From the NCBI GenBank assembly GCA_000165345.1, contig CM000433.1, positions 608,001 through 672,000 on the forward strand: DNA of 64,000 nt, given 5' to 3'. This document shows, one piece after another, positions 10,639-50,971 of the stretch; position 1 is the first letter of the stretch; every line of letters begins with the position of its first letter. Made by a program: the position numbers and the translations under genes. Under the pieces are notes generated by a model. That model had not been told where the DNA came from, did not search any database, and saw nothing but the letters and a program-made list of their open reading frames with translations.

Positions 10639-11768
10639 TTTTTATGATTAATCTCACTACTATAATAAATTAAAATTCTTGTAAAAAAAAAAAAATAAAA
10701 TAATAGACTTGTATTTTATTTTTTCACCTTGCCTAACTAGTAGAGTTGTATGTATTTTTTATTTGAATGAATTTTTTTCTTCTCAATTTGTACACCTTAT
10801 CTTGTGTATATATAAATATATTTATTTATTTAATATACACTATTTATTATATTAATTAAATACAAATTATATTATTTTATTATTATGGGGGTTATTGTCC
10901 ATTTTAAATCTAAGTACATGTAGATATTCTTTAGACGCATAGATTCAAATACTTGCTGTCTATTTTTTGGCGCCCATCCCCTCAATATTATTTATTATAA
11001 AGTAAATACTAAAAACTGATAAAAAAAAAATTTTAAAAAATTTAATGCGATAGTAGAATTGTTATGATAAATGAATAATTAACTGAAGATTAGAGATTTA
11101 TTAGAGACTCATATAGAATTATTCAATGATTTTTCCTTTTTATATTTGTTATTCTACTTTTATATTCAATGTATGGTTACATTTTTTTTTGAGAATCTTT
11201 TGTGTGCGAATTATTTCTTCAATTAATTATTCATTATTCATCTAAACTTCTTGATAAAATTTTTGTTTAACATTTTACACTAATTAGAAAAGTATTTGAA
11301 AATGGTTGGCGCGCAAATAAGCAATATTAAATATAAATATATAAATTGGGAATAAACAAAGCGATAAAGAGAAATAAATATATAATTTTCTCTTTGGAAT
11401 TCAAAGGTCTATCGTAGGTTCTCTTTTTGGGGGTATTTTGAGGTATGGTCAGAAGGATTTGACGAATAAAGGCTATTTTCTTTGCAATTTTCATTGTTTG
11501 TTCTATTAATTCTGTTCGAGTAAAAAATCAGAATATTTTTATTAAATGCAAAAAATTTGAATAAATTAAAAGAAAGCTTAATTTTATTGGATAATAAGTT
11601 GAATTGACTAGAAAATAACTCAAATTCTTCAAGAAAAGGTTATTTGCAATATCAGAGATTGGAAATGTAAAATGTAATTCTAGCTCAATAAAATACATTG
11701 ACTTTATAATTATATATATAAAGTGAATATTATATCAGGAAGATTATCTAATTTTATGGGCTTTCTAA

Positions 11769-18100: not shown

Positions 18101-21100
18101 TTACTTGAATAAAGCAAATAAGAATTTTGTTAAAGTAATTAAGAAAGGACAGAAATATATGACGGAGTTCTTCAATAATGGAGGAGCCTTTTCTAGTTTT
18201 TCTTATATGCCATGTCCCAACTATATATATTTAAATATAGATGCCAAAGCAAAACAGCTTTTGTTCTTTCCTATTCTAAAGAAGGATTCTAATAGCGAAT
18301 TATTGGAAAAATCTGATCGGAATGAAGCTTTTACAACTTTAAAAGAAAGACCAAATTCAATATTAAAATCAGCTGTTGATATGTTTTCAAGCATGATGGA
18401 ATATAAAATCAACAAAATTTCGAATTACTCTAGCATGTACTGTATTGATTGTGGTGAGATGCTTATTGAAACTTTCCAAAAGAATCCAAACAAGAAATTA
18501 GACAATTCTGGAGATAAATTCTTTACTGATAATATCAAGATAAGCTTTTCTAATATATCTCTATCGTTTATGAGACAGGTTAGATTAGTTGATCTTTATA
18601 TTTATAGAGATCTTGAAATGAAGGACAGAGGTACCGGCAATAATTTTCAAGATCCATGGGAAAAATTACAGGATTATGCTGTGAGATGTATACTAAAACC
18701 TCAAAGTTGGACATTTTCAGTTTACAAGTATAGAAGTAACTCAATAATTAATAAGAATAGTAGTATTAGACAATTTCTGGTAAATTTGGAGTTTTCTTTA
18801 AATTTAGCTCAAGATACGAGCGTGGAAATCAATACCACAGATATGGATCTTCACAATATTGCAGAAATTGTTAACTATTTTGTTAGCTTTTATTCTCAAT
18901 ACAATTTTATTAACTATTCTCAAGTTCTTATTAGTAATGTCGAAGAAGCGAATTCTATAAAAGGAAGAGAAAATTTTGATGAAAATACAAGATCTAGTGA
19001 TCAAAGCTGCTCAATTTCAAGCTTAGATTCTATGGAATCAATTATTGCAAACTCTAAATCAAAGACTAATAATGTTGAATTTCTAAAGAATATTGAGTTT
19101 ATATTTACAATACCAGAAACACATATTATTATTAAATCTGATAATGCTTATAGAGAAAGACAGGGAATGGCAATTAAAGATTTACCTGTGGTCAAGCTAA
19201 ATATCTCCTCAATCAAGGTATTTGTTTTGAATGGAGATCAAGATAGATCAGGAGTTTATGTATCTATTGCGGATGTATGTTTATCAGGAGGGATCTTGAA
19301 CAGAAATAGTAGGCTTTTAGTGCCTTTGTTTTGTCCAATTTCTGATACATTTTGCAATTTGAGTATTAAATTTTCTGATTTAAGCAATATTGACCGGTAT
19401 AAGGATTTTACAGGTATTTTATTGAATAACTCTAATATGAATATTCAAATTAATAACCCCAGATTCATTGTGTATTGGGATCTTTATGGAATTATTCTAA
19501 ATTGGATTATCACATTTTACTTTAAATCTATTGCAGTTCACCTTGAACGAAAAATAGATATCGACAAGATCAAACCAATTCTAGGTAAATGTAGTAATGA
19601 AGATATTCATAATCAAGATCAAAGGTATAATGAACAAGAATCTTTATTGGATAATGAAAATGAAGGAGCAATAGCGACTGAAAATCAATGTATTAGAAGC
19701 CAAATCATTCAGTTTCTTTCTATAATTAACCTCAAAATTCACTTTAAAGATGCTATTGCTATTCTCCCTTGCACACTTTCTGATCCAATTCAAGTAGTGA
19801 TCACAGAAATTGAGCCTTCATCATCTTCCAATTCAGCAGCTTCTTCATCAGCAGCATCTTCTGCTTCTGGACAAACTCAAACAAATTCTGGAACAGGATT
19901 TTCAGGAACTGGAACTTCCACTATTCCAACATTTTCAGCTTTTAAAGTTGATATTTTAAAATCTCTTTTAGCTGTAGTAAGATGTGATCTTACATACAGA
20001 TTTACTGGAGAATCTATATTTGAAATTGAGAACAAAAAAAATTCTCATAGTAAGCTAAAAAGCAATACAATAAAGAGTACTTTTGAACTATTTAAGGGAA
20101 GTATTCAATTTGGAAGGTCTCTGACTCCTAGGCATATTATGGAGTCTTTATGGAAGATCTCAAGAAGTCATAATATAGGAGGAAGGCATGGATTAATGAC
20201 TAGTGGAATTGGTATTTCAAGGATTGGTAGCGTTGGAGTAACCAATAATACCAATATTACACAAAATAAGATTGAAAATGTATCATCAATTGGAGGAAAG
20301 AATACAAATTTATTAACAACTCCCTCAAATGTAAATATTTCAAATACAAATTATGGCTCTGGAGGTATTGGAATAGGAGGAGGAGGAGGAGGAGTAGGAG
20401 TAGGAGTAGTAACAGGAGCTGGCCACTTCCAAAAGTCTACAGGTGAATCGAATATCACAAATTTGGTAAAGTCTTTTTATTTACCTAGAACTGATCAGGC
20501 TTTGAAAAGTTTGGTGGAAATTGAGAACTTGATAAATTCATATCAATGGCAATTCAATTTTGATATAGGATCTGGAGATGAAAAGAAAATTGTATCATCT
20601 TTAAGATTTAAGCTTGACTATATAATGAATCAATTGGAGATTAAGTCTGAAATGAGTAATGTAATCATGCTTTATGGATTTCTGGAGACAATAGAAATTA
20701 AGATGAACACAAATGAGCTTTTACATTTGATTAATGTAGTTGATATGTATTACAATTTAATTCAAAGTAATTTATTTGTGGACCTTTCCAATCAAAATAA
20801 CCAATTTGGAGGTGGTGGAGGAAGAGGATTTGATAACCAAGATACAATGTTAGATATTCAAAGTGATAATGGTTCCTCAAGATACAATATTGGATATAGT
20901 TACCAAGCAAATAGTAATTCTATGGGAAATAATGTCTCAATGATGAATTACTTGGTTTACTTATTTCCTTCAATTTTCCATACAACAATTACAAACTATA
21001 ACAAATTCATCTCACAGTTCAAATTAGAGGGATTGAAGATTCATTATATCCCAACAAATCTGACTTCCAATAAAGATGGAGTGCTTATAGATGTAACAGA

Positions 21101-24100
21101 GACTCAACTTGGTATTTATGTTAATGATGATGCTCCAGATAATGATTTCTTATTTAAAATCTTTCCTTTTTTATCAATATTTAATGAAGGATCTAAAAGA
21201 ATAATGGATGAATTTGAGATCAAAGACAAACTTATAATGATCCCAAGATTCTCAATAAGTAGTATCCCAATTTTACCAATTCTAACAAAATCCAAAGATA
21301 TTTTTTTTGGATTAATATTAGAATTCAAAAAAATATCAGTTTCAATATTTAATAATCAACTGATGTTTTATGACAATATTTTAGAACCTTTTGATGTAAG
21401 CTTATTATCAATATGCATGGGTAGTGATTCTAAAGCAAAAAAGTTATCAATAGAAAAATTGAATCCAAAAGTGAATATGGAGATTACTTGGATTAATTTG
21501 ACAATGACTCCAGAATATGTGAAATATTGGCTAAATTGCTTGGATAACTTTAATGAAGTTTATACAAATTATTATTTGAGACTTAATAATATAAATAAAC
21601 TTCTTTCTAGAAGAGTATTTCCTTATAACAATACTCTTGGAATTCTTTTACATGATCTTGAAAGTAAGATCATTGAAGAAGGTAAAGAAATAGAGGAAAA
21701 ATTTAAAGGTCTTTATTCAAGACCATTATCTGGAGAATGGGATGACCATGTATATAATTTTAATAATTCAAATAACAGTAAGCAAATAACAAGTGGTTTA
21801 GGAGAAAATTTGAGTAGCTCAAATTTTGTATTATATAATGATACAGGACAAATATTGGCCGTATTAATTCCATTATTTCTAGATGATAGTAAGAAAATGA
21901 AAGGTGGAGAGATAATTGAAACAAGAAACTTAGTTGATAATAATACAAATCAATTAAATTGCCAAGAATTACAAAACNAAGAANGANTAATTNNNANTCN
22001 ANATAGATNTGATAATTAATGGAAAAAGGAGAGGAAATTCGAATTTAATAAAAAGAAGAACTGAAAGACTCAGCTCAGAGAAATCAATTAAAGAAAGTAT
22101 ATTTGATAAGTTACTTGTAAGAAAGAAATCAGTNTTGGATACAAGTATTCTTTATTCACAAGAATCAGAAATGTCAAATATTTCAAATATAAGCAAAACA
22201 AATTACAATTTATATTATGTTTGGAGATATTTAAAACCAAATCACAAGATTTCATTCAGTAGAGACGAATATGGAAATAGTTACCCAATAGTGGTTAGAA
22301 TTCGAATCTTGAACGATGCTTTCGATCTTAATAATATTACAATGGATAAAGTTAATATGGAGGTAGTTTACCTTGGACTAAGTGAAAGAAATCAAGCAAG
22401 AATACCTTTACTAATAAAGACTGATATTATGAATAATCATTCATATTTGATTTCAATTTCCTCACGAGTTTTTATTTCAAACAATACAAGCAATATTATC
22501 AGATTAATACCAAATCCTAAGAATGTTGAAGATTTTCTAAATAATAATTTTTTCATCCCCCCAACAAGTAACAAACCAATTCTTGTTTCAAAATATAATG
22601 GAAAATTTTATGAGACTATTTCCAGAAAATTTATTGATAAAAATTATATTTCAAGTATATTAGACGAAGAAATTAATAAGACCAACTATAATAATAATGA
22701 TTATATTAATATTTTAATTCAATCAAATCTTTTCTGCAAGAATTTCAATCCTGACTTTTTTACACTCTATTTAAATCCAAATACGTATACATGCATGCCC
22801 ATGTGGACATCAATACCGGTATTGCATGCAGGCAGTAAGAATGACATGTTAAAATTCATTCCACTGCGCGCAGTAATAAATAATGTTTGGTTGGAGTCAG
22901 TGATAAGAAATAAAGAAGAAAGAAAAAATCGAGTTTCTATAAAAATACCAACGGATGATGAGAATAAGAATAAAGATATAGATGAAGAAGAGGAAGTCTT
23001 AAGGAATGATTTTTTAGTGGATAATGAGGAGTTATTGAGTGAATATTCGAGTATTTACAATCGTTTGAGTACATCTTCTGAGCAGATAGTGCAGAATAAA
23101 TGTTATAAGAAGTTGTTAACTACTAATACATCAGGAAAAAAGAAGAGTTATTATGGTTCAATCACAATTCAGTTAACAAGAAGATTACAATCGGGAGATT
23201 TGAATACAGAAAGTTTAGAGAATGGTATTGGTGGTGGTAGAAGTAGCAGTGTTAGTGGTAGTAATAATGGAAATAATAATACTGGTGAAAGTGGAGTTGT
23301 ATCAATATGTTCATCGATTTGTGAATATTTTCAAAAAGATACAAGAAGTAATCTCAACTCTTTCATGCTTGTTATTAAATTGGATATCCCTTTAATTATT
23401 GAGAATAATTTATTAATTCCTGTTCAGCTTTCATTCAATAAAGAAAAAGAAAAACATAGTAAAATAAATGGTTCAATAGAACATGTTCCAAATGATAGAG
23501 ATGAAATTAATAACAATGAAAGAATAAGTAATAATGGAAGTATCACGGGCCAAACACCAGGAAATAGTAATGATAGAATTGGGTCAGTTTTAGAAATATC
23601 AAAGACAGATAACCCTAGAGAAGATGAAGAAGGAAGTGAAGGAGAAGATGGAATTTCTGAGTTGATTGATAAAGTTATGTATATGAATGATCCCAATAGA
23701 TCAAATATTAATTTAAAAAATAATGAGAGAATTTTATTAGAATCTTTACCAACATCATTAAGTTTGAATATAATGGATATATCTTTTGGTAAGTTTTTTG
23801 GATTCTATAAATCTTCTCAGATTCAAATAAATTATAATTCAACAACAAAAGAACTTAATAAGGAAATTCTTGTTCCTTTAAAACTTAACAATGGATATAA
23901 GCTTATGCCAAATAATGATATTGCAAAAATTAGTGGTATTAGTGCTGTCATAACTAATGGATTTCTTCCAAGTTCTACTTGTATAAATGTTATGTTTGAA
24001 AATAATAGAACTGATTACATTTCCAAAGACTTTATTCCAAGACAAAAACAAGATTTTAATTATTATATGGATAATATTACCAGCCTAGATATCAAAACTT

Positions 24101-27100
24101 ATAATAAAGCTTATCCAGAATCTCAAGCTAATAATAATAATAATAACAATAATATTAATATTAATAATAATTTGGATATTTCTACTCCATGGAATGGATA
24201 TTATTGCAATGCATATAATACTTGTAAAATCAGATTAAATGTCTATGCTCCATTTTGGATTAATAATAGACAACATATACCAATTTATGTATTACAAAAG
24301 TCACAACTTTTCTCTAGATATAGATTAGGATCCAATGAATTTAAGATCCTTCCTACTAATAATGGAAAAAGTGATCTGGGTATTGCTTTAAATCCAGAAC
24401 TATCAAAGAAATGTCATTCTCCTTTTGTTCATATTGAAAGAGCTAATATTGTTGGAACTATTACTGTACCTTCAAAAAAATTCAATAATATTTCTCATTC
24501 TTTTGGTAATCATTTAAATTCAAGCTTGAGTAATCAAAATATTATTATAAGGGATATCATGTCAAGCAGTAATTTTGGATTAAAACTTGGATATTGTGTT
24601 ACAACTATTAACAATTTCTCCAAATCTCCAAATTTCATGATTAATATTTACAATAAATATATTATTGTTAATTATCATAACTTACCCATTTGGATACGAG
24701 AATCTAATAAGTTTGGAAGTTGGGTATATATTCCACCAAATATATCAATTCCTTTTCATCCATTGGATAGTAAAGATGTTTCTGTTATTGAAGTTACCTT
24801 TTTGGATCCAAAAATTATTGAAGAATATGAAAAAAAGTATCAAATCAATCTTGGTCATATTCCATATAAAACTTTACCTCTTTCTATTGACAATTTATAT
24901 GATATTCAAGTCAGATTAGTTTCTTCTTTGAATAATATTCCATTAATTAATACTAATAATAATCATGAAGAAAAAGAAAATATTAAAGATGATCAACTTG
25001 ATAATAAAATTGGAAATCTTCACTTTACTTACATTCTTTCATCAATTTCGATATATTCCATTAATTCATCAACATCTTACCAAATTAATATATATCCATC
25101 ACAAATCCCAGATTTTTCTATTGTTAATGAAACTCCATGTAATATATTTATTAGACAATTAAATACATCATCTTGGAATCATTTTAACCCTATTTCTGAC
25201 TCCAATTATGCTTTGTTGGATCCTTTTGGAGATCATATACTGGAACTTGTTGTTGGAGTTTCTTTAGGGAATTTTGATTTAGCTAAGATATCAAAAAAGA
25301 ATACAATATTACACAGCAAAAGAGATCATGGTAGTTTTGGACATCATAATAGACATCACCATCATCATAATTATCATCGTGATTCTATGGCATTTCATGA
25401 TTTCTCTTCAATACCTTTATATTTATATAATGATCACAGTATTCATTTCTGGTATAAAAATAAGAAAAATCTTAATTTAAATAAGGTATTAACTCATTCC
25501 AGACTTTTTATTCCTGAATATAATAGTATGCTTTATATTGTAATGCTTATTGAAAATGGTACAAGAGTTATCAACATTTCATTTGATAATACCTTATATA
25601 AAAGAAGACGTAATGAAATTAGAACTGTAAATCAAAGTAATACGCATATTAAGAGTAATAAATTCGATACTACTTCTCTTCAAATAAAAGGTTTAGATCG
25701 TGATGAAGATTCTGGGCATGATTTAAACCAAAGTAAGGTGAATATTAATAATATTATTGACTCTGATATTGGTCTTGAAGAAGGTAATGATGATCAGGAT
25801 CTTGTTCTTAATCACAGTGGAAAGTCTATCTTTAAGACATTGGGAAATAAATTAAAAAACCCAAAGAGATTTAGAAATAAAGATGAAAGATTAAATTATG
25901 GTGATGACGATGATGATGATGATGATAATAATAATAATGATAATGATGATATTGATGATCATTATGATCATGACGATGAAATTCAAGGAAATAATGAAAT
26001 AATTAATAGGGATAAGAGTAAATCTATTATTGGTGAAACGGGAGTAAACACTGAAACTAAAAATGTAAAATCATTTGAGACTATTAAAGATGGAGAAATT
26101 AATATTGATCAAAGTACAAGTATGATGACAGCAGTTTCTTCATTTGAGACAGAACTTTCACAATTCAGCAATTCCAATCTATCTAGAGTTTCTTCTGGTC
26201 AAAATTTATTCTTACTTGTTGACAAATTAAGACCTGAAACAAGAATATGTTTTGAAATGAATATATTATGTGATGGTTTTGGAGTATCATTCTTATCAAA
26301 TACTAATAAGGAAATTACTTATATGTCATTCCAGAAGATAAGCTTTAAGTTAGAGAATTCTAAAACAAATTATGAACAATTTCACATGAGATTCAGAATT
26401 ATTGAATTTCAATTAGATAACCATATTGCTACTTCAGCTGAAAATACAATAATTAGAAAAGCTACTCCAAATGAATTTCTAAGACTTTCAAAACTAAATA
26501 ATAAAAAGAAAGAAACAAAAAAAGATTCCAAATTAAGAAATGAATCTAATGAAATAAATGAAAATTCTAATAAGAATAAGGTTGTTAATGATGATTTTGA
26601 TGATGAATTAAATGGAATTGAAGATGATAGTTATTATGGAATAGAGTCATTACTTTCAGTTGGAGTTGTTACTTTAGGAGAAGTAATAAAGAAGAAGAGT
26701 GAGATTATTCATATTCATAATAAATTATTAGAATATATGACAGTTGGAACTCATGAAAATTTGGATTTATCAAGTAGAAATAAAAAAATCAAAGAAATAC
26801 TTTGTATGGAATCATTTCTTGATTTACAATTTAGTATTATTATGGATAATAGTAATGATATTTCTAATAAATATGGAAGTAATGGTGTAATAGAAATTCC
26901 TTATCTTTATTTTTGGATATATCCTTTAAGTATACATTTGGATATTGATACAATAAAGGAAATGGTTTCAATTTTAGAACAATTAATTAATAGAATACTT
27001 TCACCAACGGAAGAATTGGATAATACAAAATCAATATCTTTGCAAAGTTTACCTTTAGTAGAGAATCTTAAAAAAGTTTCTAAATATGTTTATATTCAAC

Positions 27101-30100
27101 TACTTTTAATGAATCCAATACAAATTTTATGTTCAACAAGTAAAAGTACTTGGAATATATCAGAAAACCAAAGTTCAAACTTTACTGACTATTATAATGT
27201 AATGAATAATATTGCTAAGATGGGTGAGAGTGAAGTTATTGTTCGTGAGATTCTTCCAATAATTCAAAGTTATGGAGTTGGAGGAGTTAACTTGAAATCA
27301 TTACTAAATTTTAAGATAATGAATAATTTTGGGAATCCATATTTGAATTTTAACAATGAATTAACTTTGAATAATGCTATTATAATGGAAAGGATTAATA
27401 TTGGAAATTTATGTCATAAGAATGATAAAAGTGAATGTATAAATGTTAATGTTTCAGAAAATGATATTAGAAAAGCTGCAATTACAGCTGAAGCTAGAGA
27501 TGTAGTTGGACAACTTGGAGATACTGGAAATATAACAAAGAATCATTTAGGTCAAGGTCAAATACAAAATAATTTAACAATGAATAAAACTGGAACTGAA
27601 TTTTTATTAAATATTTTACAATGGCTATCTTCAATGCCATTCTCAAATGTACCAATCGAATTTAAAGGAGTAATTAATGAATCTATATTTTTGGATAGTG
27701 AAAAATGTCTTGTTCAGATTGGAGATTTGTATAGACAACAAATATTTTCTCATATAGGTAAAATTATTGGATCTATTGACTTAATTGGTAATCCTATTGA
27801 TATTTATATTCTTGTTAAAGAAGGATTATTGGCATCCAAATATCATTTTGATCTTTATAAAAGAGCTACAAAGCTTAAAGAGAAGATTCAGGAGAATATG
27901 ACAAGAAAAAGGATTCAAAAGAATGAGAAACTTAATGGAAGGATAGATAGTAATAAAGGTATAGATTTAGATATAAATGATATGAAAAATTACAACAAAA
28001 ATATTGAAATGGTTGAGGTTGAGAATAAAAATTTGGAAAGTTTGATAGAAATTGGATCCTATGATAATATTGAAGATTATGACTATGATTCAATGAGTGA
28101 GGAAATAAATTATCAAACAGAGAAAGAACAGTTAGAAGAACAATATCAATATCTAATCGATTTTTGTTATGAATTAGATGAAAAACAAACAACAAAAACA
28201 TATGATGAAGAAGTTGATAATTTTTTGAAGAATAATAAATCATTAGTATTAAAATTGAATGCAGAATTAATGACTAAATTATTATTCTTTTCAATTAAAG
28301 AGATTATGGTTGGATTACATATTCTCGTAGGTACAGGAATTGCAGTAGCATCTCAAGTAATTGTAAGAATATCAAGTGCAATATTACATTTATTTGAAGT
28401 AACATATTTATTAGATCAAGATTGTTTAATGAGTATTTGGTATGGGACACCATTATTTATGAGCAGGTATATTGCAGATAATCCAAATAATTTGATAGAA
28501 GGTTTAATTACGGGATTATTACGTTCTTTATTAATAATAATGAGCATAATAATAAATTTTTGGCAGGTACCTAAAAAGATGTATAGACAGATGGGTAATT
28601 GGGGTATATTTTTGGGTATGTTTTTAGCAATAGTGAGAATAATACCAGCAGGCTTTGCATCTTTTCTCACTTTATTTTATGGTGTTTCTTCAGGTGTAGT
28701 TCAAAGTTTACGTACAAGAATCCCAGTAAGTCATATAAGAACTGTAAGGGTAATTTGTAATGGAAGTCCAATATTACCATATAACCCTCAACATAGTATT
28801 GCAACAATGATAATAGATTCATTAAAGTTAGTCAATGATGTGAAAGAATCAAATATAATAAATTTTATATCATTCAAGAATCAAACAAATAATTGTAGTG
28901 GATCATCAAGCTTAGATAATAATATTGATGATATAATATTGAATAATAAAAGACGACCTGTTGATAAGAGTGGGATAGAGAAGAAGTTTTTGATATATAA
29001 ATTATTGGAAAATAAGGAGGATTCAAGTTTAAGTCATTATAATGGTATAATTATATTTAAGGAAAGTATTTCATTATTAAAATCAGGAAAATTGGTTTGG
29101 ATGGTTCCATTGATAAATATTAATAGAATTAATCTATATTTGGTTTTAAATAATGGTAATAATAAATCAGAAGATAATAACAATAGATTAAATAGAAGAA
29201 GGATAAAGGATATATTTTATAGTAGAGAAAAGGGTAAGACAAGAAGGAATACAGCTTTTGAAAATTTGTTGGATATTGAGAGTCATTTCTTAGGTATTAA
29301 TAAGAAAGATGAAAATGAAAGTAATGGTGATGGCGATGAAAATAGTAATATTGGTGGGAATAATATCAATAATGAAAATATGGCAGTAAAAAATGATAAT
29401 AGTGGTAATAGTTTTAATAAGAGATCGTTTGAATTTCATCTTTTCATTAAACCATGGAGTTATTTGGATGATATAATAGAAAATAATACGAGTCAAAATA
29501 ACAAATCTTGTTTAAATAGAGCAAAAGGTGGAGGAACATTTGTAGGTGGTAGTTCAAAATTTTTTTCAAATAATAATAACAAAAGTTCTATTGGATTTGG
29601 TGATATAATTACAAAAAATGGAAGAAATCTTCTTCCACAATCAAAAAATATTATTTCAAAATTTAATAAATGGAAAGCTAAAAGAATGAGAAAGAAAGGA
29701 ATAAACTTATTTTCTGATAAGAAATTTATGAAACAATTATTATTACCAAAAAAAATTGAAAATGTTCATATTAATAAAAGATTTACTATGAATGAGAGAA
29801 GTCTTATAAACTTTAAGACAAATAACAAAGCTTTGAATGATTTAATAATTTCAATGGATGAGAATAGAGCAGTAATGACCAATTTTAATTTGAATAATAA
29901 TTCATTCATTTCATTTCCATCAATTACAATGTCATCATTTTCATCAGTAAATTTAGGTCAAAAGAGTTCTTCATCTTTTTCCAACGATAGCCAATTTCAA
30001 TTGAGTTCATGTAAACAATTTTCAGAAAAGATAATTTTTACAGTTGAAGATAAGGATGACGCAATTAAGGTATTTTCTGTTTTATCAAGGTATATCAATT

Positions 30101-30108
30101 CTGAATGA
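15111..30108 (+). CDS. VPS13: Giant VPS13-like bridge-like lipid-transfer protein (chorein-N family). Two ORFs (15111-22019 and 22135-30108) are joined across a run of ambiguous N bases.
   Basis: The N-terminus MFRYCSKITERVLYSTIKNVMNKIFTNFEQEQLSISLLGGSLEIRDLNIRKELFDDLSFPISLSDGIVGKVNIDVIW...VKITLDDVYVIF matches the chorein-N motif of VPS13 ([45 protein letters not shown]...IEDVYLL). The second ORF has no ATG, and its frame is open back to 22021 (GKRRGNSNLIKRRTERLSSEKSIKESIFDKLLVRKKSVLD). The break therefore coincides with the n characters at 21978-22134, and a frame shift is expected from the uncertain base count. The C-terminal region has amphipathic/hydrophobic helices consistent with an ATG_C-like region. 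His and Asp runs and a poly-Asn region are present. Confidence 0.7.
21978..22134. other. Run of ambiguous bases (n) / low-quality assembly stretch inside the giant VPS13-like gene
   Basis: Literal n characters at 21978-22010 and 22134. The ORF frame changes from 0 to 1 across the stretch, and the apparent stop at 22017-22019 lies inside it. Confidence 0.9.
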
Positions 30109-30491
30109 AATTTCTTTTTTTTTTTTTGTAAATATTTTACTCAAAAAGAATTAATTGGCGTAATAATACAATGGTAGTAAAATTTCCACCTTTTTTTCTT
30201 AATTTTTATTTTAATTTAATAATAATTTTCAAAAACAAATGTTGCATGCATGCAATCATTAATTTTTAACTTACGTGGAAACACGTAAGCAAAAAAAAAT
30301 TGCGCAAAATTTGCACATGAATGCCGGTATAGGAAAAAATTAGTGGTAGAATTAATTAATTATTTAATAAAAGAATTTTTTTTTTTTTTAATTAATTGAA
30401 TTAAATTAAAGTAAATAATAATAGAACAAAATATCTAATTTTTAATTATTTTATACTCAGATTTAAGATAGATTGAAAGAAGGAAATAATA

Positions 30492-32159: not shown

Positions 32160-34152
32160 ACAAATTTTTTGAAACTATGTACTCAGCATACAGATTTGAA
32201 TAATCTTTAATTAATTCTTTTAATTCCATCTTAGAATTTCCATGGAAATTAATTCTAGATATAGAACTAGAATCAGAATTGGAATCATTTTCTGAATAGA
32301 AGCTTGAACTTGGACTAGAAATAGAGCTTTGGCTGGAACATGATTTGGATCTGGGTTCTGACTTGGACCTAGACCTGGAGTGTGATTTGGATTTGGATTT
32401 GGATCTGGGCTTGGATCTGGATCTGGACTTGGAGTATGATCTGGACTTGGAGTATGATCTGGATCTGGATCTGGATCTGGATCTGGATCTGGATCTGGAT
32501 CTTGATCTTGATCTTGATCTGGACCTGGATCTGGATTTTGACTTTGAACAAGAACTAGAGCTTTTCTTTTCAAGCCTGGAATTTTGAATATTTAGCTTTG
32601 TATTAATTTTGGGTACCTTTTTGAAACTAGTATTATCTTCATTAATGGTACAACTATTAGCTTTATTGGGTACTAAATTGTTGGCTTTCTTTCTTGTAAT
32701 GCTTCTTCCCTTTCGCTTTGAATTGCCTTTTCTTATGTAGATCCTAGATTCTGTCTCAGACTGTGAACCTAGTTCTGATTCTAATTTACTAACCAAACCC
32801 CTAATCTTATTCATTTTTAACTCTCCATCTTTTTTAAATGATATTCTTGGTTCAGAAGCAGACCTAGACTTGGTTCTGGATTCTGATTTAAATCCAGATC
32901 TTGATCCAGACCTCGATCTAGACCTAGAACTAGAGCTGGAACTGGAGCTGGAGCTGGGACTAGAACTGGGGCTGGATTTAAGTCTTCCTTTCTGTTCACT
33001 ATTCCCAAGCTTATGTTTAACTCTTTTAATGCTAATGCTAACATCAGTATCAATGTAACTGTTTCCTTCATCATTATAACTGTATTCTGCTTTATCTTCA
33101 GTCTTTTCATGATTTTTCTCCTGTTCAAATTTGATATGATTATTAGCACCAGAATTGCTACTAGTATGAGGCCTAAGGCCACGGTTTTGTTCAAAACTTC
33201 TATTATTCATAGAATTATTTGCATTTGCCATTGGATATTGATCTTTAAGTTTACATGGATTATTGTTTTCCAATTTTGAATAGAAACAATTTTCATTACT
33301 TGGATTCAAATTTATTGAACTTGAAAGTATTTCATCCAAATCTGTTATGCTAATTTTATTTCTCAAATTAATGATTTGCATTCTTTTTGGATCAATCAAC
33401 AAAATTATAGGCTCCCTCAATAACTTGGACTCTTGCATAATTATTGATTTTAATTCGCCATTTTCACATTCAAAAGATTTACAATTACCATTACGAGTCT
33501 CAAATTGTTGGTATTCTAAATCCATACTTTTATTCATATTCATTTCCATATCCAGTCCAATATCAACTTCCAAATTATCTTTAAAGAAAGGACTCATATT
33601 TCTTAAATATTCTTTCAATCTTTGACATAATTGAAAGTAAGATTTGCAGATTCTATTATTACTTTTAAAATCAAAAGAAAGATAATCTCCATTTTCTCCA
33701 CTAGTATAAACTTTCTTCTCAAAATCCATAATTGAATTGCTCATACAATCCATACTAGTTTTCATTACATTTGTAAAATTTTCTAATTTATCCATCATCT
33801 TCTTCAATATCATCTTTCTTTCATTCATTAATTCATCCACCTTTCTTTCTACTACTTTTATTGCAATCTCTTTCACATATAGTCCATCCCTTCCTATACT
33901 TTCATTCAAACCTTGCAAACTTTCTTTCCATAATCCTAAACGATCCTTCATTATTTCCATCTCTTTCATTGAATCATCATACATTTTAATATTCATTAGC
34001 AAATCATTTCTGCTCATTTTATCATCTTCAATATTATCCAACTCTTCTTCAATCCTTCTTTGCTCATTTATATATTTGTTATAGTCAAGCCCTCCTGTCC
34101 CAAATTGACCATTTTCATCTTCCTCTTCATCTAATTGATATCTATTATTCAT
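32137..34152 (-). CDS. Arg/Ser-repeat (RS-domain) protein with an N-terminal coiled-coil-like region
   Basis: 671-aa ORF. It has a long RS dipeptide array (SKSKSRSRSRSRSRSRSRSRSRSRSRSRSRSYSKSRS...) encoded by (GATCTG)n-type repeats at ~32341-32556, and a second SRS/GSRS block at ~32866-32995. The N-terminal 280 aa are charged and helical. The 3' end overlaps the DHH gene by ~23 bp. Confidence 0.6.
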   Translation of the reverse strand: MNNRYQLDEEEDENGQFGTGGLDYNKYINEQRRIEEELDNIEDDKMSRNDLLMNIKMYDDSMKEMEIMKDRLGLWKESLQGLNESIGRDGLYVKEIAIKVVERKVDELMNERKMILKKMMDKLENFTNVMKTSMDCMSNSIMDFEKKVYTSGENGDYLSFDFKSNNRICKSYFQLCQRLKEYLRNMSPFFKDNLEVDIGLDMEMNMNKSMDLEYQQFETRNGNCKSFECENGELKSIIMQESKLLREPIILLIDPKRMQIINLRNKISITDLDEILSSSINLNPSNENCFYSKLENNNPCKLKDQYPMANANNSMNNRSFEQNRGLRPHTSSNSGANNHIKFEQEKNHEKTEDKAEYSYNDEGNSYIDTDVSISIKRVKHKLGNSEQKGRLKSSPSSSPSSSSSSSSSSRSRSRSGSRSGFKSESRTKSRSASEPRISFKKDGELKMNKIRGLVSKLESELGSQSETESRIYIRKGNSKRKGRSITRKKANNLVPNKANSCTINEDNTSFKKVPKINTKLNIQNSRLEKKSSSSCSKSKSRSRSRSRSRSRSRSRSRSRSRSRSRSYSKSRSYSKSRSRSKPRSKSKSKSHSRSRSKSEPRSKSCSSQSSISSPSSSFYSENDSNSDSSSISRINFHGNSKMELKELIKDYSNLYAEYIVSKNLSKIEAYY
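32341..32556. repeat. Hexanucleotide-type microsatellite (GATCTG / GATCTT)n encoding the RS dipeptide array
   Basis: Visible tandem gatctggatctggatctg... run. The opposite-strand spurious ORFs (DLDLDL..., IQIQIQ...) are artefacts of the repeat. Confidence 0.8.
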
Positions 34153-34492: not shown

Positions 34493-34616
34493 TTGGGCGG
34501 GAACCCCCCACATGCAATAACTAAATTTAAATAGAACTTGGCGGGACAATATTCAATTTGAACTTTGCATGTAAATTTTGGTCCACTAAATTTGACTGCA
34601 TGTGTGGCGGTAAAAC
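34493..34616. promoter_or_regulatory. Cluster of three GGCGG(GA) E2F-type sites plus GCATG boxes upstream of the RS-protein gene
   Basis: ttgggcgggaac (34493-34504), cttggcgggaca (34537-34548) and tgtggcggtaaaa (34604-34616), interspersed with catgcaa and tgcatgt. Confidence 0.45.
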
Positions 34617-40169: not shown

Positions 40170-42101
40170 CTATTCCAAATGAAACTTCAGCTTCTGTGTG
40201 TTACCAACAAATATATAATGCGACGGAAATTCTCCGTGCTCATTTAATCCTGGACACCAAACTTCTATTGTTGGAAATGCCATATTTGCATGTGGACGAT
40301 TTGGTTGCATGTCTTCCATACCGACATTATTATCCTCATGCACCGCTCTAATATGTACAATTCCTGCCATTGAGGAGATTGGCGCGCATGTTGAATTTTT
40401 TGCATGGCATATTCCCGCAATAGTATTCACAAGATTTTTTAAAGGTTTATTATATGGAAGAATTTGAGCTTGATTATCAATCATAGATACATCTTGGTCA
40501 GCAGGTAGAGCTGATGCAGGTAAAGATGCAATCTGTAGTTCAACTAGATGGCACCAAGTACTTGAAACAAGTGTACTAGTATTAATTAGTGACTTGCCAT
40601 CATCTCCCATAGGTATTACTTTGAGATTAATTGTATGAGGTTTGAGCGGGAATTCGGGGGTTCCAAAAAAATAAGATTTTAAACATTCTCTTCTAATTTC
40701 AGCAAGCCTTTGCGAGGTGATACTGATAACTCCGTCAGACTTTGAGACTCCAACAACAGAAATCTTTGGTAGTTTTTCAAACTGCTTTTCAATATTTAGT
40801 TTATTAATATCAATTTCCTGATCAGAGCTTGAGTTATTTGCATTTCCTGACTCTTCTAAATGTTGTTTTTCTAAGATTTCATAGCTTTGGGGTTCCTTAT
40901 AGTCATATTGATCTGATAAATAGTGTTGGGTACTTGGATCGTCCATTACTACCACGACATCAATGTTGAAAATAGAAATAAGTTCTTTTAAAAGGTCATT
41001 TGATGGCTGAAATGGAGCGTTTAATATAAATCCTGAAGCTTGAGAGTTTGTATCTTGAATGTTTTGACTCCTAAGCGATATTGCACCACTTAGAAGCCTA
41101 CACAGGTATAAATATAATTGAAGGTCATCTGTTACATTTAAATGACCAAAAAAGAATGAAAGAGGATTTCTTAACTCTTTGCTGTGAAGAAAAAATTCAT
41201 TAACTTTTATTGCTCCAATTGTTCCAGCTGGAAACTGCATATTTTCTTTATCCGTAGATCCTCTCGGATCTAAATCTATAAATAAAGGTGTATACCCTCT
41301 TCTTGCTGCATAATTACAAAGAATCTGACACAAGGTAGATTTACCTGAATTAGATGATCCTGTTACCATAACTCTTGGGCCTAAAGTCCCATGAAGCTTT
41401 GAAAAATTTCTCCTGTTATCCAATACTTGAATAACTTCCATATACTCTTTCATACTTTTATTCACACTTTCATATTCTTGCTGAACTAATCCTCTAATTT
41501 GTAAAATACATCCATGCCAAGTATATATCGCAACTCTTGATAATGGAGCAATCTTCATATCAACATCTGGAGGAAGCTCAGCTCCAAATATTTCTGCTGT
41601 TGTCATTGCATTTGTCTGAGCTCCTCCACTTCCTGTCACAGCTCCTGCCCCTGATGATGATGAAGAGTAAAGTCTAATTGTGCAAGGCTGACTTGGATGA
41701 GCAATTATTCTCAATTCACTTCCTGCTTCAATCTTATAAGCTCTTACTTGAGACTTTGTCATTCCAACCCCTGGGCCCACATCTCCTCCAATTCCACCTC
41801 CTTGCCCTGACCCCAGTCCTCCCGTTCCTGCTCCTGTTCCTACTCCTATTCCAACTCCTGCTCCTATCCCTGTTCCAACTCCTTGTCCTAACCCTAGTCC
41901 AACTCCTAGTCCAGGAATAGCTCCAGAACTTGCTCCTACCCCAGAATTAAATCCTATTCCTGATGGTATTTCCATTTTACATTCTAAAGCGCTTAAAGAA
42001 ATAAATAATTCAAAATTTTCCTTGTAAATTGTTACTCTGACCGTAGAGCTGTAAATTTTGTGTAAATTCAAATTAAATGAGTAATATTTCCTTCCATTCA
42101 C
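40170..42101 (-). CDS. CLP1: Clp1-family polynucleotide 5'-kinase (pre-mRNA cleavage factor Clp1 / Grc3-like) with an N-terminal Gly-rich low-complexity insertion
   Basis: P-loop region VMVTGSSNSGKSTLCQILCNYAARRGYTPLFIDLDPRGS aligns with Clp1 [40 protein letters not shown]. A downstream ...FGHLNV... segment is consistent with the Clp1 central and C-terminal domains. Residues ~45-115 are a (G-[VLIAT]-G) repeat tract encoded at ~41760-41960. Confidence 0.75.
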   Translation of the reverse strand: MNGRKYYSFNLNLHKIYSSTVRVTIYKENFELFISLSALECKMEIPSGIGFNSGVGASSGAIPGLGVGLGLGQGVGTGIGAGVGIGVGTGAGTGGLGSGQGGGIGGDVGPGVGMTKSQVRAYKIEAGSELRIIAHPSQPCTIRLYSSSSSGAGAVTGSGGAQTNAMTTAEIFGAELPPDVDMKIAPLSRVAIYTWHGCILQIRGLVQQEYESVNKSMKEYMEVIQVLDNRRNFSKLHGTLGPRVMVTGSSNSGKSTLCQILCNYAARRGYTPLFIDLDPRGSTDKENMQFPAGTIGAIKVNEFFLHSKELRNPLSFFFGHLNVTDDLQLYLYLCRLLSGAISLRSQNIQDTNSQASGFILNAPFQPSNDLLKELISIFNIDVVVVMDDPSTQHYLSDQYDYKEPQSYEILEKQHLEESGNANNSSSDQEIDINKLNIEKQFEKLPKISVVGVSKSDGVISITSQRLAEIRRECLKSYFFGTPEFPLKPHTINLKVIPMGDDGKSLINTSTLVSSTWCHLVELQIASLPASALPADQDVSMIDNQAQILPYNKPLKNLVNTIAGICHAKNSTCAPISSMAGIVHIRAVHEDNNVGMEDMQPNRPHANMAFPTIEVWCPGLNEHGEFPSHYIFVGNTQKLKFHLE

Positions 42102-47803: not shown

Positions 47804-47916
47804 GTCCACATGCAAAATTATTGACATGAAATTTTTTAAAAACTTGCATCTATACCGGTATCAATATTGCATGTGGACGCATTTTTTTTAATTACAAAAT
47901 AATTAAATACCGGTAA
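47804..47916. promoter_or_regulatory. Composite promoter module in the alpha-amylase / SNF2 divergent intergenic: inverted 12-bp repeat gtccacatgcaa ... ttgcatgtggac(gcat) flanking the palindrome ctATACCGGTATc, plus a second aATACCGGTAaa
   Basis: 47804-47815 is the reverse complement of 47866-47877. ATACCGGTAT (47852-47861) is a perfect 10-bp palindrome. A further ataccggtaa lies at 47907-47916. Confidence 0.5.
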
Positions 47917-48145
47917 ATAATCAAAAGATAAAATTTAAAAAAAGTGTAAATTAATTATGAAAGTTTTTAATTAGAAAAAATAATTAAAAGAATATTTCTT
48001 TGTATAATTATTAATTTTTGAACAAATTCCAGGCCAAAACCTAAGTGCCATAATAATAGAAATATTTATAAATAGTAAAGAAAGAAAATTTTGTAAGTTA
48101 TGGAGCTAAATTGAAAAATATAGAAGGCATTAGTTATTTACAAAC

Positions 48146-50752: not shown

Positions 50753-50971
50753 TTGAATAACTAATGGTGCTTCAAAATTCATATCAATTCTTTTGCATGG
50801 AAATTTTTCTTTAAAAATTAATTTATTATTATTCTGGTATTTAATTTGAAGGCAAATTATTTATATTATTAATTTCCCCTGTAAAATATATATATATATA
50901 TTAGACTCTGTTTGGGCGGGCTCTCCATTTAAAGAGGTTCCGTCTTGACATTTTGACAAGAAAATAAGAAA

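What the first reader, a model, noticed from the sequence alone, without database searches (positions are those of the whole stretch)
47804..47916. Recurrent two-part promoter module CATGTGGACGCAT + CTATACCGGTA in divergent intergenic regions, a separate signal from the E2F and GCATGC boxes
There are two identical long words: catgtggacgcat (47870-47882 and 58473-58485) and ctataccggta (47850-47860 and 58525-58535). In both regions the two words lie ~20-50 bp apart. Both regions are ~250-350 bp upstream of two divergently oriented genes (amylase/SNF2 and Jjj1/Brr2). Partial copies of the same pair occur at the following places:
- 9534-9552 (ccacatgcaa + ataccggtg, AAA ATPase promoter)
- 30314-30332 (cacatg + ccggtatag, DHH promoter)
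- 40285-40329 (ttgcatgtggacga ... cataccgaca)
- inside a CDS at 22799-22824
Exact 11-13-mers containing five or six G/C are very unlikely to recur by chance in ~64 kb of ~72% A+T DNA. At 47804-47877 the CATGTGGAC word also occurs as a 12-bp inverted repeat around the palindrome ATACCGGTAT. That arrangement suggests a dimeric transcription-factor site or an origin/insulator-like element. I do not recognise this pair as one of the described E2F, G-box or GAGA motif classes.
Basis: seen in the sequence. Interest (0 to 1): 0.6.

Follow-up and report, generated by a model that had tools for sequence, protein, structure and literature searches.

The report
Conserved two-box promoter module in Cryptosporidium
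Two short DNA words that recur between divergent genes in this Cryptosporidium parvum segment have stayed almost unchanged at the same places in at least eight Cryptosporidium lineages, so they are very probably binding sites of a gene-control module that the published motif lists I could search for this parasite do not contain.

Summary
The window is C. parvum chromosome 5 (cgd5_27xx-296x). CATGTGGACGCAT and CTATACCGGTA each occur exactly twice, in the amylase/SNF2 spacer and the Jjj1/Brr2 spacer. The 12-nt inverted copy and the partial copies are also where stated.

Both words and their pairing far exceed chance. More decisive is conservation. In orthologous spacers of C. meleagridis, chipmunk genotype I, C. 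ubiquitum, C. canis, C. felis and two unnamed lineages, the boxes are nearly invariant while the surrounding AT-rich DNA has diverged. Parts persist in C. bovis and C. andersoni. In C. bovis the first box is inverted in place, which points to a protein-binding site, not an RNA.

Rfam, tRNA and covariation tests give no support for an RNA gene. Segmental duplication is excluded.

My best reading is a composite cis-regulatory module of promoters that lack a conserved E2F box next to it. Box A, (TG)CATGTGGAY, extends the TGCATG ApiAP2 site, so it is not fully separate from the GCATGC family. Box B, the palindrome TACCGGTA, is absent from the Cryptosporidium motif lists I could search, but is identical to an abundant oomycete promoter motif.

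The binding factors are unknown. The copy in the Clp1 coding sequence is decaying and probably not functional.

The parts
47804..47816 (-). Box A', the inverted copy. It reads TGTCCACATGCAA on the + strand, which is TTGCATGTGGACA on the - strand.
   Evidence: The core TCCACATG is invariant in 7 lineages (alignment A5). C. felis has ATCCACATG.
47844..47862 (.). TTGCAT followed by box B1, CTATACCGGTATC. The palindrome ATACCGGTAT is at 47852-47861.
   Evidence: TTGCAyNTATACCGGTAT is invariant in 8 lineages.
47866..47882 (+). Box A, ATTGCATGTGGACGCAT: a TGCATG site extended by TGGAC.
   Evidence: TGCATGTGGA is invariant. The gap to box B1 is held at 6-8 nt in all 8 lineages, while the other gaps vary from 16 to about 55 nt.
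47907..47921 (+). Box B2, ATACCGGTAAATAAT, on the SNF2 side.
   Evidence: C. bovis keeps GCCGGTAAATGATG upstream of SNF2 although the amylase neighbour has been replaced. C. andersoni has TACCGGTACATGCATG in this spacer.
58470..58495 (+). Box A cluster, TTTCATGTGGACGCATGTAATGCATG.
   Evidence: yATGTGGAyGCATG is conserved in 6 species. In C. bovis it is present but inverted (CATGCATCCACATG).
58525..58538 (+). Box B, CTATACCGGTAAAA.
   Evidence: TATACCGGy is conserved from C. parvum to C. bovis.
58549..58602 (+). Continuation of the conserved block: AAATGATTAATACCCTCAAAA, a second box B (CCGGTAAAAAAATGAC, 58572-58587), and box C (TTTCCACGTATAG, 58590-58602). Box C is an imperfect inverted relative of box A.
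   Evidence: The block is nearly invariant in 5 species. In C. bovis the same boxes occur with different spacing. TACGTGGAAA recurs at 30272.
9534..9551 (-). Compact composite upstream of katanin (cgd5_2790). The - strand reads CACCGGTATTGCATGTGG.
   Evidence: ATTGCATGTGG is shared with 34508 and 47866. The pair is not kept in the much shorter C. felis spacer (L008).
22790..22831 (+). Dense cluster inside the VPS13-like coding sequence: CATGCATGCCCATGTGGACATCAATACCGGTATTGCATGCAG.
   Evidence: Conservation could not be tested because no orthologous DNA was obtained.
30272..30332 (-). Copy in the DHH-gene promoter: TACGTGGAAA (box C), CACATG and CCGGTATAG (box B), downstream of TGCATGCATGCA.
   Evidence: The orthologous promoter was cut off at a contig end, so conservation is untested.
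40285..40329 (+). Copy in the 3' end of the Clp1 coding sequence: TTGCATGTGGACGA ... CATACCGACA. It is probably not functional.
   Evidence: Both words are intact only in chipmunk genotype I. One or the other is lost in C. parvum, C. meleagridis and C. ubiquitum. Both are absent in C. canis, C. felis and C. andersoni.
34508..34609 (.). Related vocabulary in the 34.5-kb spacer: CCACATGCAAT, TGCATG followed 9 nt later by GGTCCAC, and TGCATGTGTGGCGG.
   Evidence: The unnamed Logan lineage (L009) has TGCATGTCCAC at the corresponding place.

Best explanation
The two words are protein-binding sites of a composite cis-regulatory module. The module forms the conserved core of the amylase/SNF2 promoter region and of the Brr2-side promoter region.

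**The boxes**
- Box B is the palindrome TACCGGTA, often extended to CCGGTAAA. It is most likely bound by a dimeric sequence-specific factor. By analogy with oomycete data, a Myb-type protein is the best candidate.
- Box A is (TG)CATGTGGAY. It is a TGCATG ApiAP2-type site with a TGGAY extension that resembles half of the G-box-like word TGTGGGG. One candidate is the AP2 protein cgd1_3520, which binds both TGCAT and the G-box in vitro.
- Box B next to a TGCATG at a short, constrained distance is the recurring unit, which suggests cooperative binding.
- The further A-type boxes sit in either orientation at variable distance.

**Shown here:** enrichment, pairing, deep conservation, orientation independence, one constrained spacing, and no RNA-gene signal.

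**Inferred:** that proteins bind these boxes, which proteins they are, and that binding drives or shapes transcription of the flanking genes.
For: **Identity of the window.** Exact protein matches place it in C. parvum chromosome 5.

**Statistics.** Word and pair counts far exceed chance.

**Footprinting, amylase/SNF2 spacer.**
- The only G/C-containing 7-mers present in all five other named species are 17 words, and all of them lie in boxes A', B1, A and B2.
- E2F boxes have the same status in neighbouring spacers.
- Two further unnamed lineages show the same architecture.
- In C. felis the spacer is only 277 bp, and the module fills its centre.

**Footprinting, Jjj1/Brr2 spacer.** The boxes are conserved as far as C. 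bovis. There box A is inverted in place and the spacings differ. That is how protein-binding sites behave, not an RNA gene.

**Shared vocabulary.** Words from one spacer are found in the other spacer of all five other species (5 and 9 words). None are found in E2F-type spacers.

**Constrained spacing.** The gap from box B1 to TGCATG is 6-8 nt in 8 lineages. The same composite with a 1-2 nt gap occurs at 9534, at 22813 and in C. andersoni.

**Gene association.** Box B stays with SNF2 in C. bovis after its neighbouring gene changed.

**Literature.**
- ATACCGGTAT is an abundant promoter motif in Plasmopara and Phytophthora (PMC10031896, PMC3520976).
- A P. infestans Myb protein binds ACCGGTC on protein-binding microarrays (PMC11267843 supplement).
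- cgd1_3520 binds both TGCAT and the G-box (PMC4117751).
Against: - There is no direct evidence of binding or promoter activity.
- No transcription start sites or chromatin data were available to me.
- Only about 64 kb of C. parvum plus about 190 kb of orthologous loci were examined, so genome-wide use is unknown.
- Copies also occur inside coding sequences (VPS13-like, Clp1).
- The genes next to the module fall in different expression clusters in Oberstaller et al. 2013: cgd5_2920 in cluster 112, cgd5_2960 in 75, cgd5_2790 in 55. A simple co-regulated gene set is therefore not evident.
- Sporozoite ATAC-seq peaks were reported to be dominated by E2F motifs, with no AP2 motifs detected (bioRxiv 10.1101/2025.01.17.633476).
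- The candidate factors rest on analogy only.
- The Jjj1/Brr2 spacer does carry a conserved E2F-like TTCCCGCC box near Jjj1, so 'E2F-poor' describes the module's immediate surroundings, not that whole spacer.
Confidence: 0.68

Rival explanations
1. The conserved feature is a nucleic-acid structure and not a set of protein sites. It could be an RNA hairpin in a 5' leader or small non-coding RNA, or a DNA cruciform. It would be formed by the inverted A-type boxes that flank box B: A'/A in the amylase/SNF2 spacer, and A/C in the Jjj1/Brr2 spacer.
For: - A perfect 12-nt inverted repeat is present.
- The 121-nt region folds better than shuffles on both strands, with z = -2.9 and -3.9.
- In C. felis both arms change together, G-C to A-U.
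- RNAalifold pairs ATGTGGA with TCCACGT in the Jjj1/Brr2 spacer.
Against: - Eight of the 12 pairs never vary, and the single compensatory change is not significant (118 of 500 shuffles reach it).
- The Jjj1/Brr2 alignment shows no compensatory pair on either strand, and its fold z-scores are +0.3 and -1.4.
- Loop lengths vary widely.
- In C. bovis box A is inverted and its partner is lost.
- GGAC to GGAT changes also occur singly in the Jjj1/Brr2 spacer.
- There is no Rfam or tRNA match.
- All reading frames are closed, or broken by indels between species.
Confidence: 0.1
2. The module is a chromosomal element that is not a promoter, such as a replication origin or a chromatin boundary. A sequence-specific protein would bind it independently of transcription of the neighbouring genes.
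For: - The module sits centrally in long spacers.
- It shows inverted-repeat symmetry.
- Copies occur inside coding sequences (22790-22831 and 40285-40329).
- The neighbouring genes are in different expression clusters.
Against: - There is no positive evidence for origin or boundary function.
- The Clp1 coding copy is decaying.
- Box B follows the SNF2 gene in C. bovis when the neighbour changes.
- In C. felis the module lies only about 80-115 bp from both start codons, where a promoter is expected.
- The same palindrome is a promoter motif in oomycetes (PMC10031896).
Confidence: 0.07
3. The recurrence is an accident of composition, or the result of a recent duplication of one spacer into the other.
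For: The words were chosen after looking at the sequence, so in-window statistics alone are post hoc.
Against: - The flanks of the words do not align between the two spacers.
- Each copy is conserved at its own orthologous position in 6-8 lineages whose SNF2 proteins are only 57-89% identical.
- No simulation reaches the observed word and pair counts.
Confidence: 0.02

Closest known systems
Oomycete promoter palindrome: Plasmopara halstedii streme-5 (ATACCGGTAT), equated by its authors with Phytophthora motif-9 (GTACCGGTA) (PMC10031896, PMC3520976)
   Same: - The 10-mer is identical to C. parvum 47852-47861 and 22813-22822.
- It is an inverted-repeat motif located upstream of genes.
- No binding factor has been assigned.
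- Oomycetes and apicomplexans both belong to the SAR group (my own knowledge).
   Different: - In oomycetes the motif was found by genome-wide enrichment (206 genes in Plasmopara, 1,284 in Phytophthora) and is linked to effector genes.
- Here it lies next to housekeeping-type genes and is paired with TGCATG-type sites.
- Common descent of the site-factor pair is untested.
AP2_1 motif (TGCATGCA / TGCAT) of ApiAP2 proteins (PMC3734150, PMC4117751)
   Same: - Box A in the amylase/SNF2 spacer contains TGCATG in both copies.
- The Jjj1/Brr2 copy is followed by GCATG and TGCATG.
- FIRE motif 7 (ACATGY) and motif 13 (WATTGCA) of Oberstaller et al. 2013 cover parts of ATTGCATGTGG.
   Different: - The conserved extension TGGAY is not part of AP2_1.
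- The second half of the AP2_1 palindrome (GCA) is missing.
- The word CATGTGGAY is conserved as a unit, even where TG is replaced (TTTCATGTGG in the Jjj1/Brr2 spacer).
G-box-like family (DTGTGGGG; G[T/C]GGGG), including the MEME motif TTGTATGTGGAAA of expression cluster 124 in the Oberstaller et al. 2013 supplement
   Same: - Both share the ATGTGG core.
- The 34508 copy reads TTGCATGTGGGGGG, which joins the two families.
- cgd1_3520 binds both TGCAT and the G-box.
   Different: Boxes A and C end in GGAC, GGAT or GGAA, not in the GGGG run that defines the G-box.
Myb-type recognition of related sites in oomycetes: PITG_08960 binds ACCGGTC (PMC11267843 supplement) and PsMyb37 binds TACATGTA (PMC11134190)
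   Same: The sites share an ACCGGT core or a TAC..GTA palindrome frame. This shows that Myb-domain proteins can read such sites.
   Different: - The organisms are different.
- The preferred flank is C, not A.
- No orthology with any of the 16 C. parvum Myb-domain proteins was tested.
E2F/DP sites (TTGGCGCCAAA), the dominant Cryptosporidium promoter element
   Same: They have the same kind of evidence here: short G/C-containing words kept across species in otherwise diverged AT-rich spacers.
   Different: - The sequences are different.
- No words are shared between the two promoter classes.
- The amylase/SNF2 spacer has no conserved E2F site at all.

Membership tests
E2F/DP binding site | GCGC-containing core ([A/T][C/G]GCGC[G/C][A/T]; TTTGGCGGGAAA) | tested here: not met
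   Boxes A, B and C contain no GGCGC or GGCGG. No conserved 7-mers are shared between the A/B spacers and the E2F-type spacers.
AP2_1 (TGCATGCA) ApiAP2 site | TGCAT(G) core sequence | tested here: met
   TGCATG is part of both box A copies in the amylase/SNF2 spacer (47808-47813 on the - strand and 47868-47873) and is invariant in 7-8 lineages. In the Jjj1/Brr2 spacer the A word itself lacks TGCAT but is followed by GCATGT and TGCATG.
AP2_1 (TGCATGCA) ApiAP2 site | Binding by a TGCAT-recognising AP2 domain (cgd2_3490, cgd8_3230, cgd1_3520, cgd5_4250 and others) | not testable with these tools
   This needs a protein-binding microarray, EMSA or CUT&RUN.
G-box (G[T/C]GGGG) | A run of four G after G[T/C] | tested here: not met
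   Boxes A and C read GTGGAC, GTGGAT or GTGGAA. Only the 34508 copy reads GTGGGGGG.
Oomycete motif-9 / streme-5 palindrome | The sequence ATACCGGTAT or GTACCGGTA, located upstream of genes | tested here: met
   ATACCGGTAT lies at 47852-47861 in a spacer. TACCGGTA lies at 47908 and 58528. The motif strings are taken from PMC10031896.
Oomycete motif-9 / streme-5 palindrome | The same, orthologous binding factor and genome-wide upstream enrichment | not testable with these tools
   The factor is unknown in both lineages, and no whole Cryptosporidium genome was available to scan.
Small non-coding RNA gene | A match to a curated RNA family or tRNA model, or a conserved structure with covariation | tested here: not met
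   - Rfam gathering threshold: 0 matches.
- Rfam E-value mode: nothing in either spacer.
- ARAGORN: 0 genes.
- Compensatory pairs: none in the Jjj1/Brr2 spacer and one, not significant, in the amylase/SNF2 spacer.
Segmental duplication | Similarity extending beyond the words into the flanks, and a young age | tested here: not met
   Only the 11-13-mers match. Both copies are conserved at orthologous positions across species.
Functional cis-regulatory site (general) | Purifying selection compared with the surrounding non-coding DNA | tested here: met
Functional cis-regulatory site (general) | An effect on transcription when mutated, or occupancy by a factor | not testable with these tools
   This needs reporter mutagenesis, ATAC footprints or ChIP/CUT&RUN.

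The most novel reading that the evidence does not exclude
The palindrome ATACCGGTAT is an ancient promoter element shared by oomycetes and Cryptosporidium. It would be read by an orthologous, still unassigned factor, possibly of Myb type. In Cryptosporidium that factor would work together with a TGCATG-binding ApiAP2 protein to define a second major promoter class that operates independently of E2F.
Probability: 0.15. Interest if true: 0.65.

Novelty: new member of a known kind. Interest (0 to 1): 0.5.

Why it matters
The 2025 review of Cryptosporidium gene regulation lists only six upstream motif families. The binding factors are unknown for several of the over-represented motifs found earlier.

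This finding adds a motif pair whose conservation across the genus matches that of E2F boxes. Such a pair would:
- give a concrete handle on promoters that do not depend on E2F sites next to them;
- offer compact, defined elements for building expression constructs;
- provide bait sequences for identifying a new DNA-binding factor.

The identity of box B with an abundant oomycete promoter palindrome also raises a testable question: is part of the promoter vocabulary older than the apicomplexan AP2 expansion?

Tried and rejected
**RNA gene.** Rfam at gathering and E-value thresholds, ARAGORN, RNAalifold on both strands, single-sequence folds and a pair count on the inverted repeat gave nothing beyond what the inverted repeat itself produces.

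**Coding potential of the conserved Jjj1/Brr2 block.** The + strand frames are closed. One - strand frame is open, but it is broken by 1-nt indels between species. I read this directly from alignment A2.

**Orthologues for the other copies.**
- The VPS13-like N-terminal query returned only a partial C. felis protein. Its contig ends before the 22800 site.
- The DHH exon query returned only short contigs or contigs cut at the promoter.
- Conservation of the 22800 and 30314 copies therefore remains untested.

**Clp1 copy.** I considered it a real site and rejected that, because it decays within the parvum clade.

**Katanin copy.** It is not kept as a pair in C. felis.

**Literature string searches.** Searches for ACCGGT, TGTGGAC, CCGGT with ApiAP2, TACCGGTA and ATACCGGTAT returned only primers, apart from the oomycete papers. 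A search for the 2024 life-cycle paper returned only papers that cite it. The supplement of the ApiAP2 microarray paper is not held as text, so its full motif tables were not checked.

**Co-expression.** The flanking genes fall in different clusters, which gives no support for one regulon.

**Other resemblances recalled from memory.** Plant DRE (TACCGACAT), Grainyhead (AACCGGTT), forkhead, bHLH E-box and the HSF-like TTTCCACG. None was tested, and none is used as evidence.

**Metagenome pattern scan.** I considered it and skipped it. Specific patterns would recover only orthologues of the same spacer, and loose patterns would be swamped by chance hits.

Full report
**What the window is**

Four proteins encoded in the window match database entries exactly. 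They are alpha-amylase, an SNF2-family helicase, a hypothetical protein and a katanin/fidgetin AAA ATPase, all from Cryptosporidium parvum chromosome 5. The window is 28% G+C and about three quarters coding.

**Checking the observation**

Every coordinate holds.
- CATGTGGACGCAT is exact at 47870 and 58473. CTATACCGGTA is exact at 47850 and 58525.
- GTCCACATGCAA at 47805-47816 is the perfect inverted copy of TTGCATGTGGAC at 47868-47879.
- A second TACCGGTA lies at 47908.
- The partial copies at 9534, 22800, 30314 and 40285 are present.

Two of the partial copies need re-labelling.
- The 22800 copy is truly inside a coding sequence. The two long ORFs there appear to be one VPS13-like gene, interrupted only by ambiguous bases at 21978-22135.
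- The 40285 copy is inside the last 160 nt of the Clp1 coding sequence.

**Chance**

I ran 500 Markov simulations at order 1 and 500 at order 3.

| Word or pair | Observed | Expected |
|---|---|---|
| CATGTGGAC | 5 | about 0.1 |
| TACCGGTA | 5 | 0.07-0.24 |
| CATGTGG with ACCGGT within 60 nt | 5 | at most 0.012 |

No simulation reached any of these observed values. These words were picked after looking at the sequence, so I also ran an unbiased count. Among 11-mers with at least five G/C that are shared by two different spacers, there are 22, against 1.7 in shuffles. Most of them belong to E2F sites or to these two words; a G-box-like word and a few other single words make up the rest.

**Independent test: conservation**

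I fetched the syntenic region around the SNF2 orthologue from seven named species: C. meleagridis, chipmunk genotype I, C. ubiquitum, C. canis, C. felis, C. bovis and C. andersoni. I also fetched two unnamed lineages from SRA assemblies.

*Amylase/SNF2 spacer.*
- The background is 18-23% G+C in the six syntenic species and the two unnamed lineages, and it has diverged freely.
- Four blocks are almost invariant from C. parvum to C. felis and in the unnamed lineages where the block is covered:
  - GTCCACATG(CA)
  - TTGCAyNTATACCGGTAT
  - TGCATGTGGAy
  - TACCGGTAA
- An alignment-free test gives the same answer. Of 87 G/C-containing 7-mers in the C. parvum spacer, 17 occur in the orthologous spacer of all five other syntenic species. 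All 17 lie in these boxes.
- In neighbouring spacers, most of the words with the same status are E2F boxes.

*Jjj1/Brr2 spacer.*
- The same two words are conserved with C/T wobble.
- They are followed by a longer, nearly invariant block, AATGATTAATACCCTCAAAA.CCGGTAAAAAAATGACAATTTCCACGTATAG.

*Shared vocabulary.*
- Words from one spacer are found in the other spacer of every species: 5 words one way and 9 the other.
- None are shared with the E2F-type spacers.

Conservation at each copy's own position, with non-matching flanks, excludes a recent duplication.

**What kind of element**

Four observations favour protein-binding sites over an RNA.
- In C. bovis the first word of the Jjj1/Brr2 spacer is inverted in place (CATGCATCCACATG) while TACCGG remains next to it, and the downstream boxes are kept at different spacings.
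- Most gaps between boxes vary from 16 to about 55 nt. One gap is fixed: TACCGGTA to TGCATG is 6-8 nt in eight lineages.
- The same composite with a 1-2 nt gap recurs at 9534 (CACCGGTATTGCATGTGG on the - strand), at 22813 (ATACCGGTATTGCATGCA) and in the C. andersoni spacer (TACCGGTACATGCATG).
- In C. bovis the amylase neighbour has been replaced, yet GCCGGTAAATGATG remains upstream of SNF2.

The RNA tests were negative or uninformative.
- Rfam and tRNA searches found nothing in these spacers.
- The 12-nt inverted repeat makes the amylase/SNF2 region fold better than shuffles.
- Eight of its twelve pairs never vary. The single compensatory change, G-C to A-U in C. felis, is not significant.
- The Jjj1/Brr2 block shows no covariation and ordinary folding energies.

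**Relation to known motifs**

Box A is not independent of the GCATGC family.
- In the amylase/SNF2 spacer it is TGCATG plus TGGAC.
- In the Jjj1/Brr2 spacer it is followed by GCATG and TGCATG.
- Its ATGTGG core also resembles the G-box-like word DTGTGGGG. At 34508 the two merge into TTGCATGTGGGGGG.
- The supplement of Oberstaller et al. 2013 lists a cluster-124 motif, TTGTATGTGGAAA, among the G-box-like entries.
- The AP2 protein cgd1_3520 binds both TGCAT and the G-box in vitro. That makes it a reasonable but untested candidate.

Box B, and box A as a unit, are absent from the Cryptosporidium motif lists I could read.
- They are not among the 25 motifs of Oberstaller et al. 2013.
- They are not in the text of the ApiAP2 microarray paper.
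- They are not in the text of the 2007 de novo motif study.
- They are not in the six-family table of a 2025 review.

Box B does have a match outside the phylum.
- ATACCGGTAT is motif streme-5 of Plasmopara halstedii. Its authors equate it with the abundant inverted-repeat motif-9 of Phytophthora.
- A P. infestans Myb protein prefers ACCGGTC on microarrays.
- These are analogies, not tests of membership.

**Limits**

- I could not scan a whole genome, could not see transcription start sites and could not test binding.
- The Clp1 copy is decaying and absent in C. canis and C. felis.
- The katanin copy is not kept as a pair in C. felis.
- The VPS13 and DHH copies could not be checked.
- The flanking genes are in different expression clusters. 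This may explain why cluster-based motif discovery missed the pair, but it also argues against a simple regulon.

**Verdict**

This is a real, conserved composite cis-regulatory module and a new motif pair for Cryptosporidium. One half is related to the TGCATG and G-box-like families. The other half is identical to an oomycete promoter palindrome. The binding factors and the exact role remain to be shown.

Noticed in passing
window 21978-22135: A run of ambiguous bases (n) splits what appears to be one very large VPS13-like gene into two ORFs, 15111-22019 and 22135-30108.
   Followed up: partly
window 22790-22831: Inside the VPS13-like coding sequence, four promoter-type words are packed into 42 nt: TGCATGC, CATGTGGAC, ATACCGGTAT and TGCATGCA. 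This could be an intragenic or antisense promoter. No orthologous DNA was obtained to test it.
   Followed up: partly
window 9485-9544 and 34508-34610: The spacer upstream of katanin and the 34.5-kb spacer share two different 11-mers, ATTGCATGTGG and ATGTGTGGCGG. That is a second recurring word pair, combining an A-type box with a GGCGG word.
   Followed up: no
window 30270-30289: The DHH promoter has an inverted repeat, CTTACGTGGAAACACGTAAG. Its left half, TACGTGGAAA, is the exact reverse complement of TTTCCACGTA in the Jjj1/Brr2 spacer (58590-58599).
   Followed up: partly
window 9308-9320 and 11360-11372: The exact 13-mer AGCGATAAAGAGA occurs on the same strand on both sides of the actin-depolymerising-factor gene (10234-10638).
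   Followed up: no
window 50912-50955: The short SNF2/DNA-pol-phi spacer keeps TTGGGCGGG (E2F-like) and GTCTTGACATTTTG in all six species compared. A similar TTGACAT word sits in the amylase/SNF2 spacer at 47836.
   Followed up: no
window 58667-58710 and 58793-58815: Further conserved blocks lie downstream of the module: AAAGCTTGGAAG...GAATTAATGCTAAG and TTGGAGACGTrTATAAC followed by GTAAG. They could be part of the Brr2 5' leader, and the second could be a splice donor.
   Followed up: no
window 58150-58165: A conserved E2F-like box, TTCCCGCC, sits about 60-70 bp upstream of the Jjj1 start codon. Jjj1 probably has its own proximal promoter, and the A/B module more likely serves Brr2.
   Followed up: partly
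L007 (C. andersoni) about 20625-20645: The Jjj1/Brr2 spacer of C. andersoni lacks the A/B module but contains a telomere-repeat-like GGTTTAGGGTTTAG.
   Followed up: no
L004 (C. canis) and L008 (C. felis), whole loci: These loci are 45% G+C overall, against 28-34% in the other loci. The C. canis amylase/SNF2 spacer that carries the module is still AT-rich (21% G+C).
   Followed up: no
window 32454-32539: There is a weak Rfam hit to mir-607 (35 bits against a gathering score of 94; E = 0.009). It lies inside the coding sequence of a protein that has a serine/arginine-rich repeat region, and is almost certainly chance.
   Followed up: no
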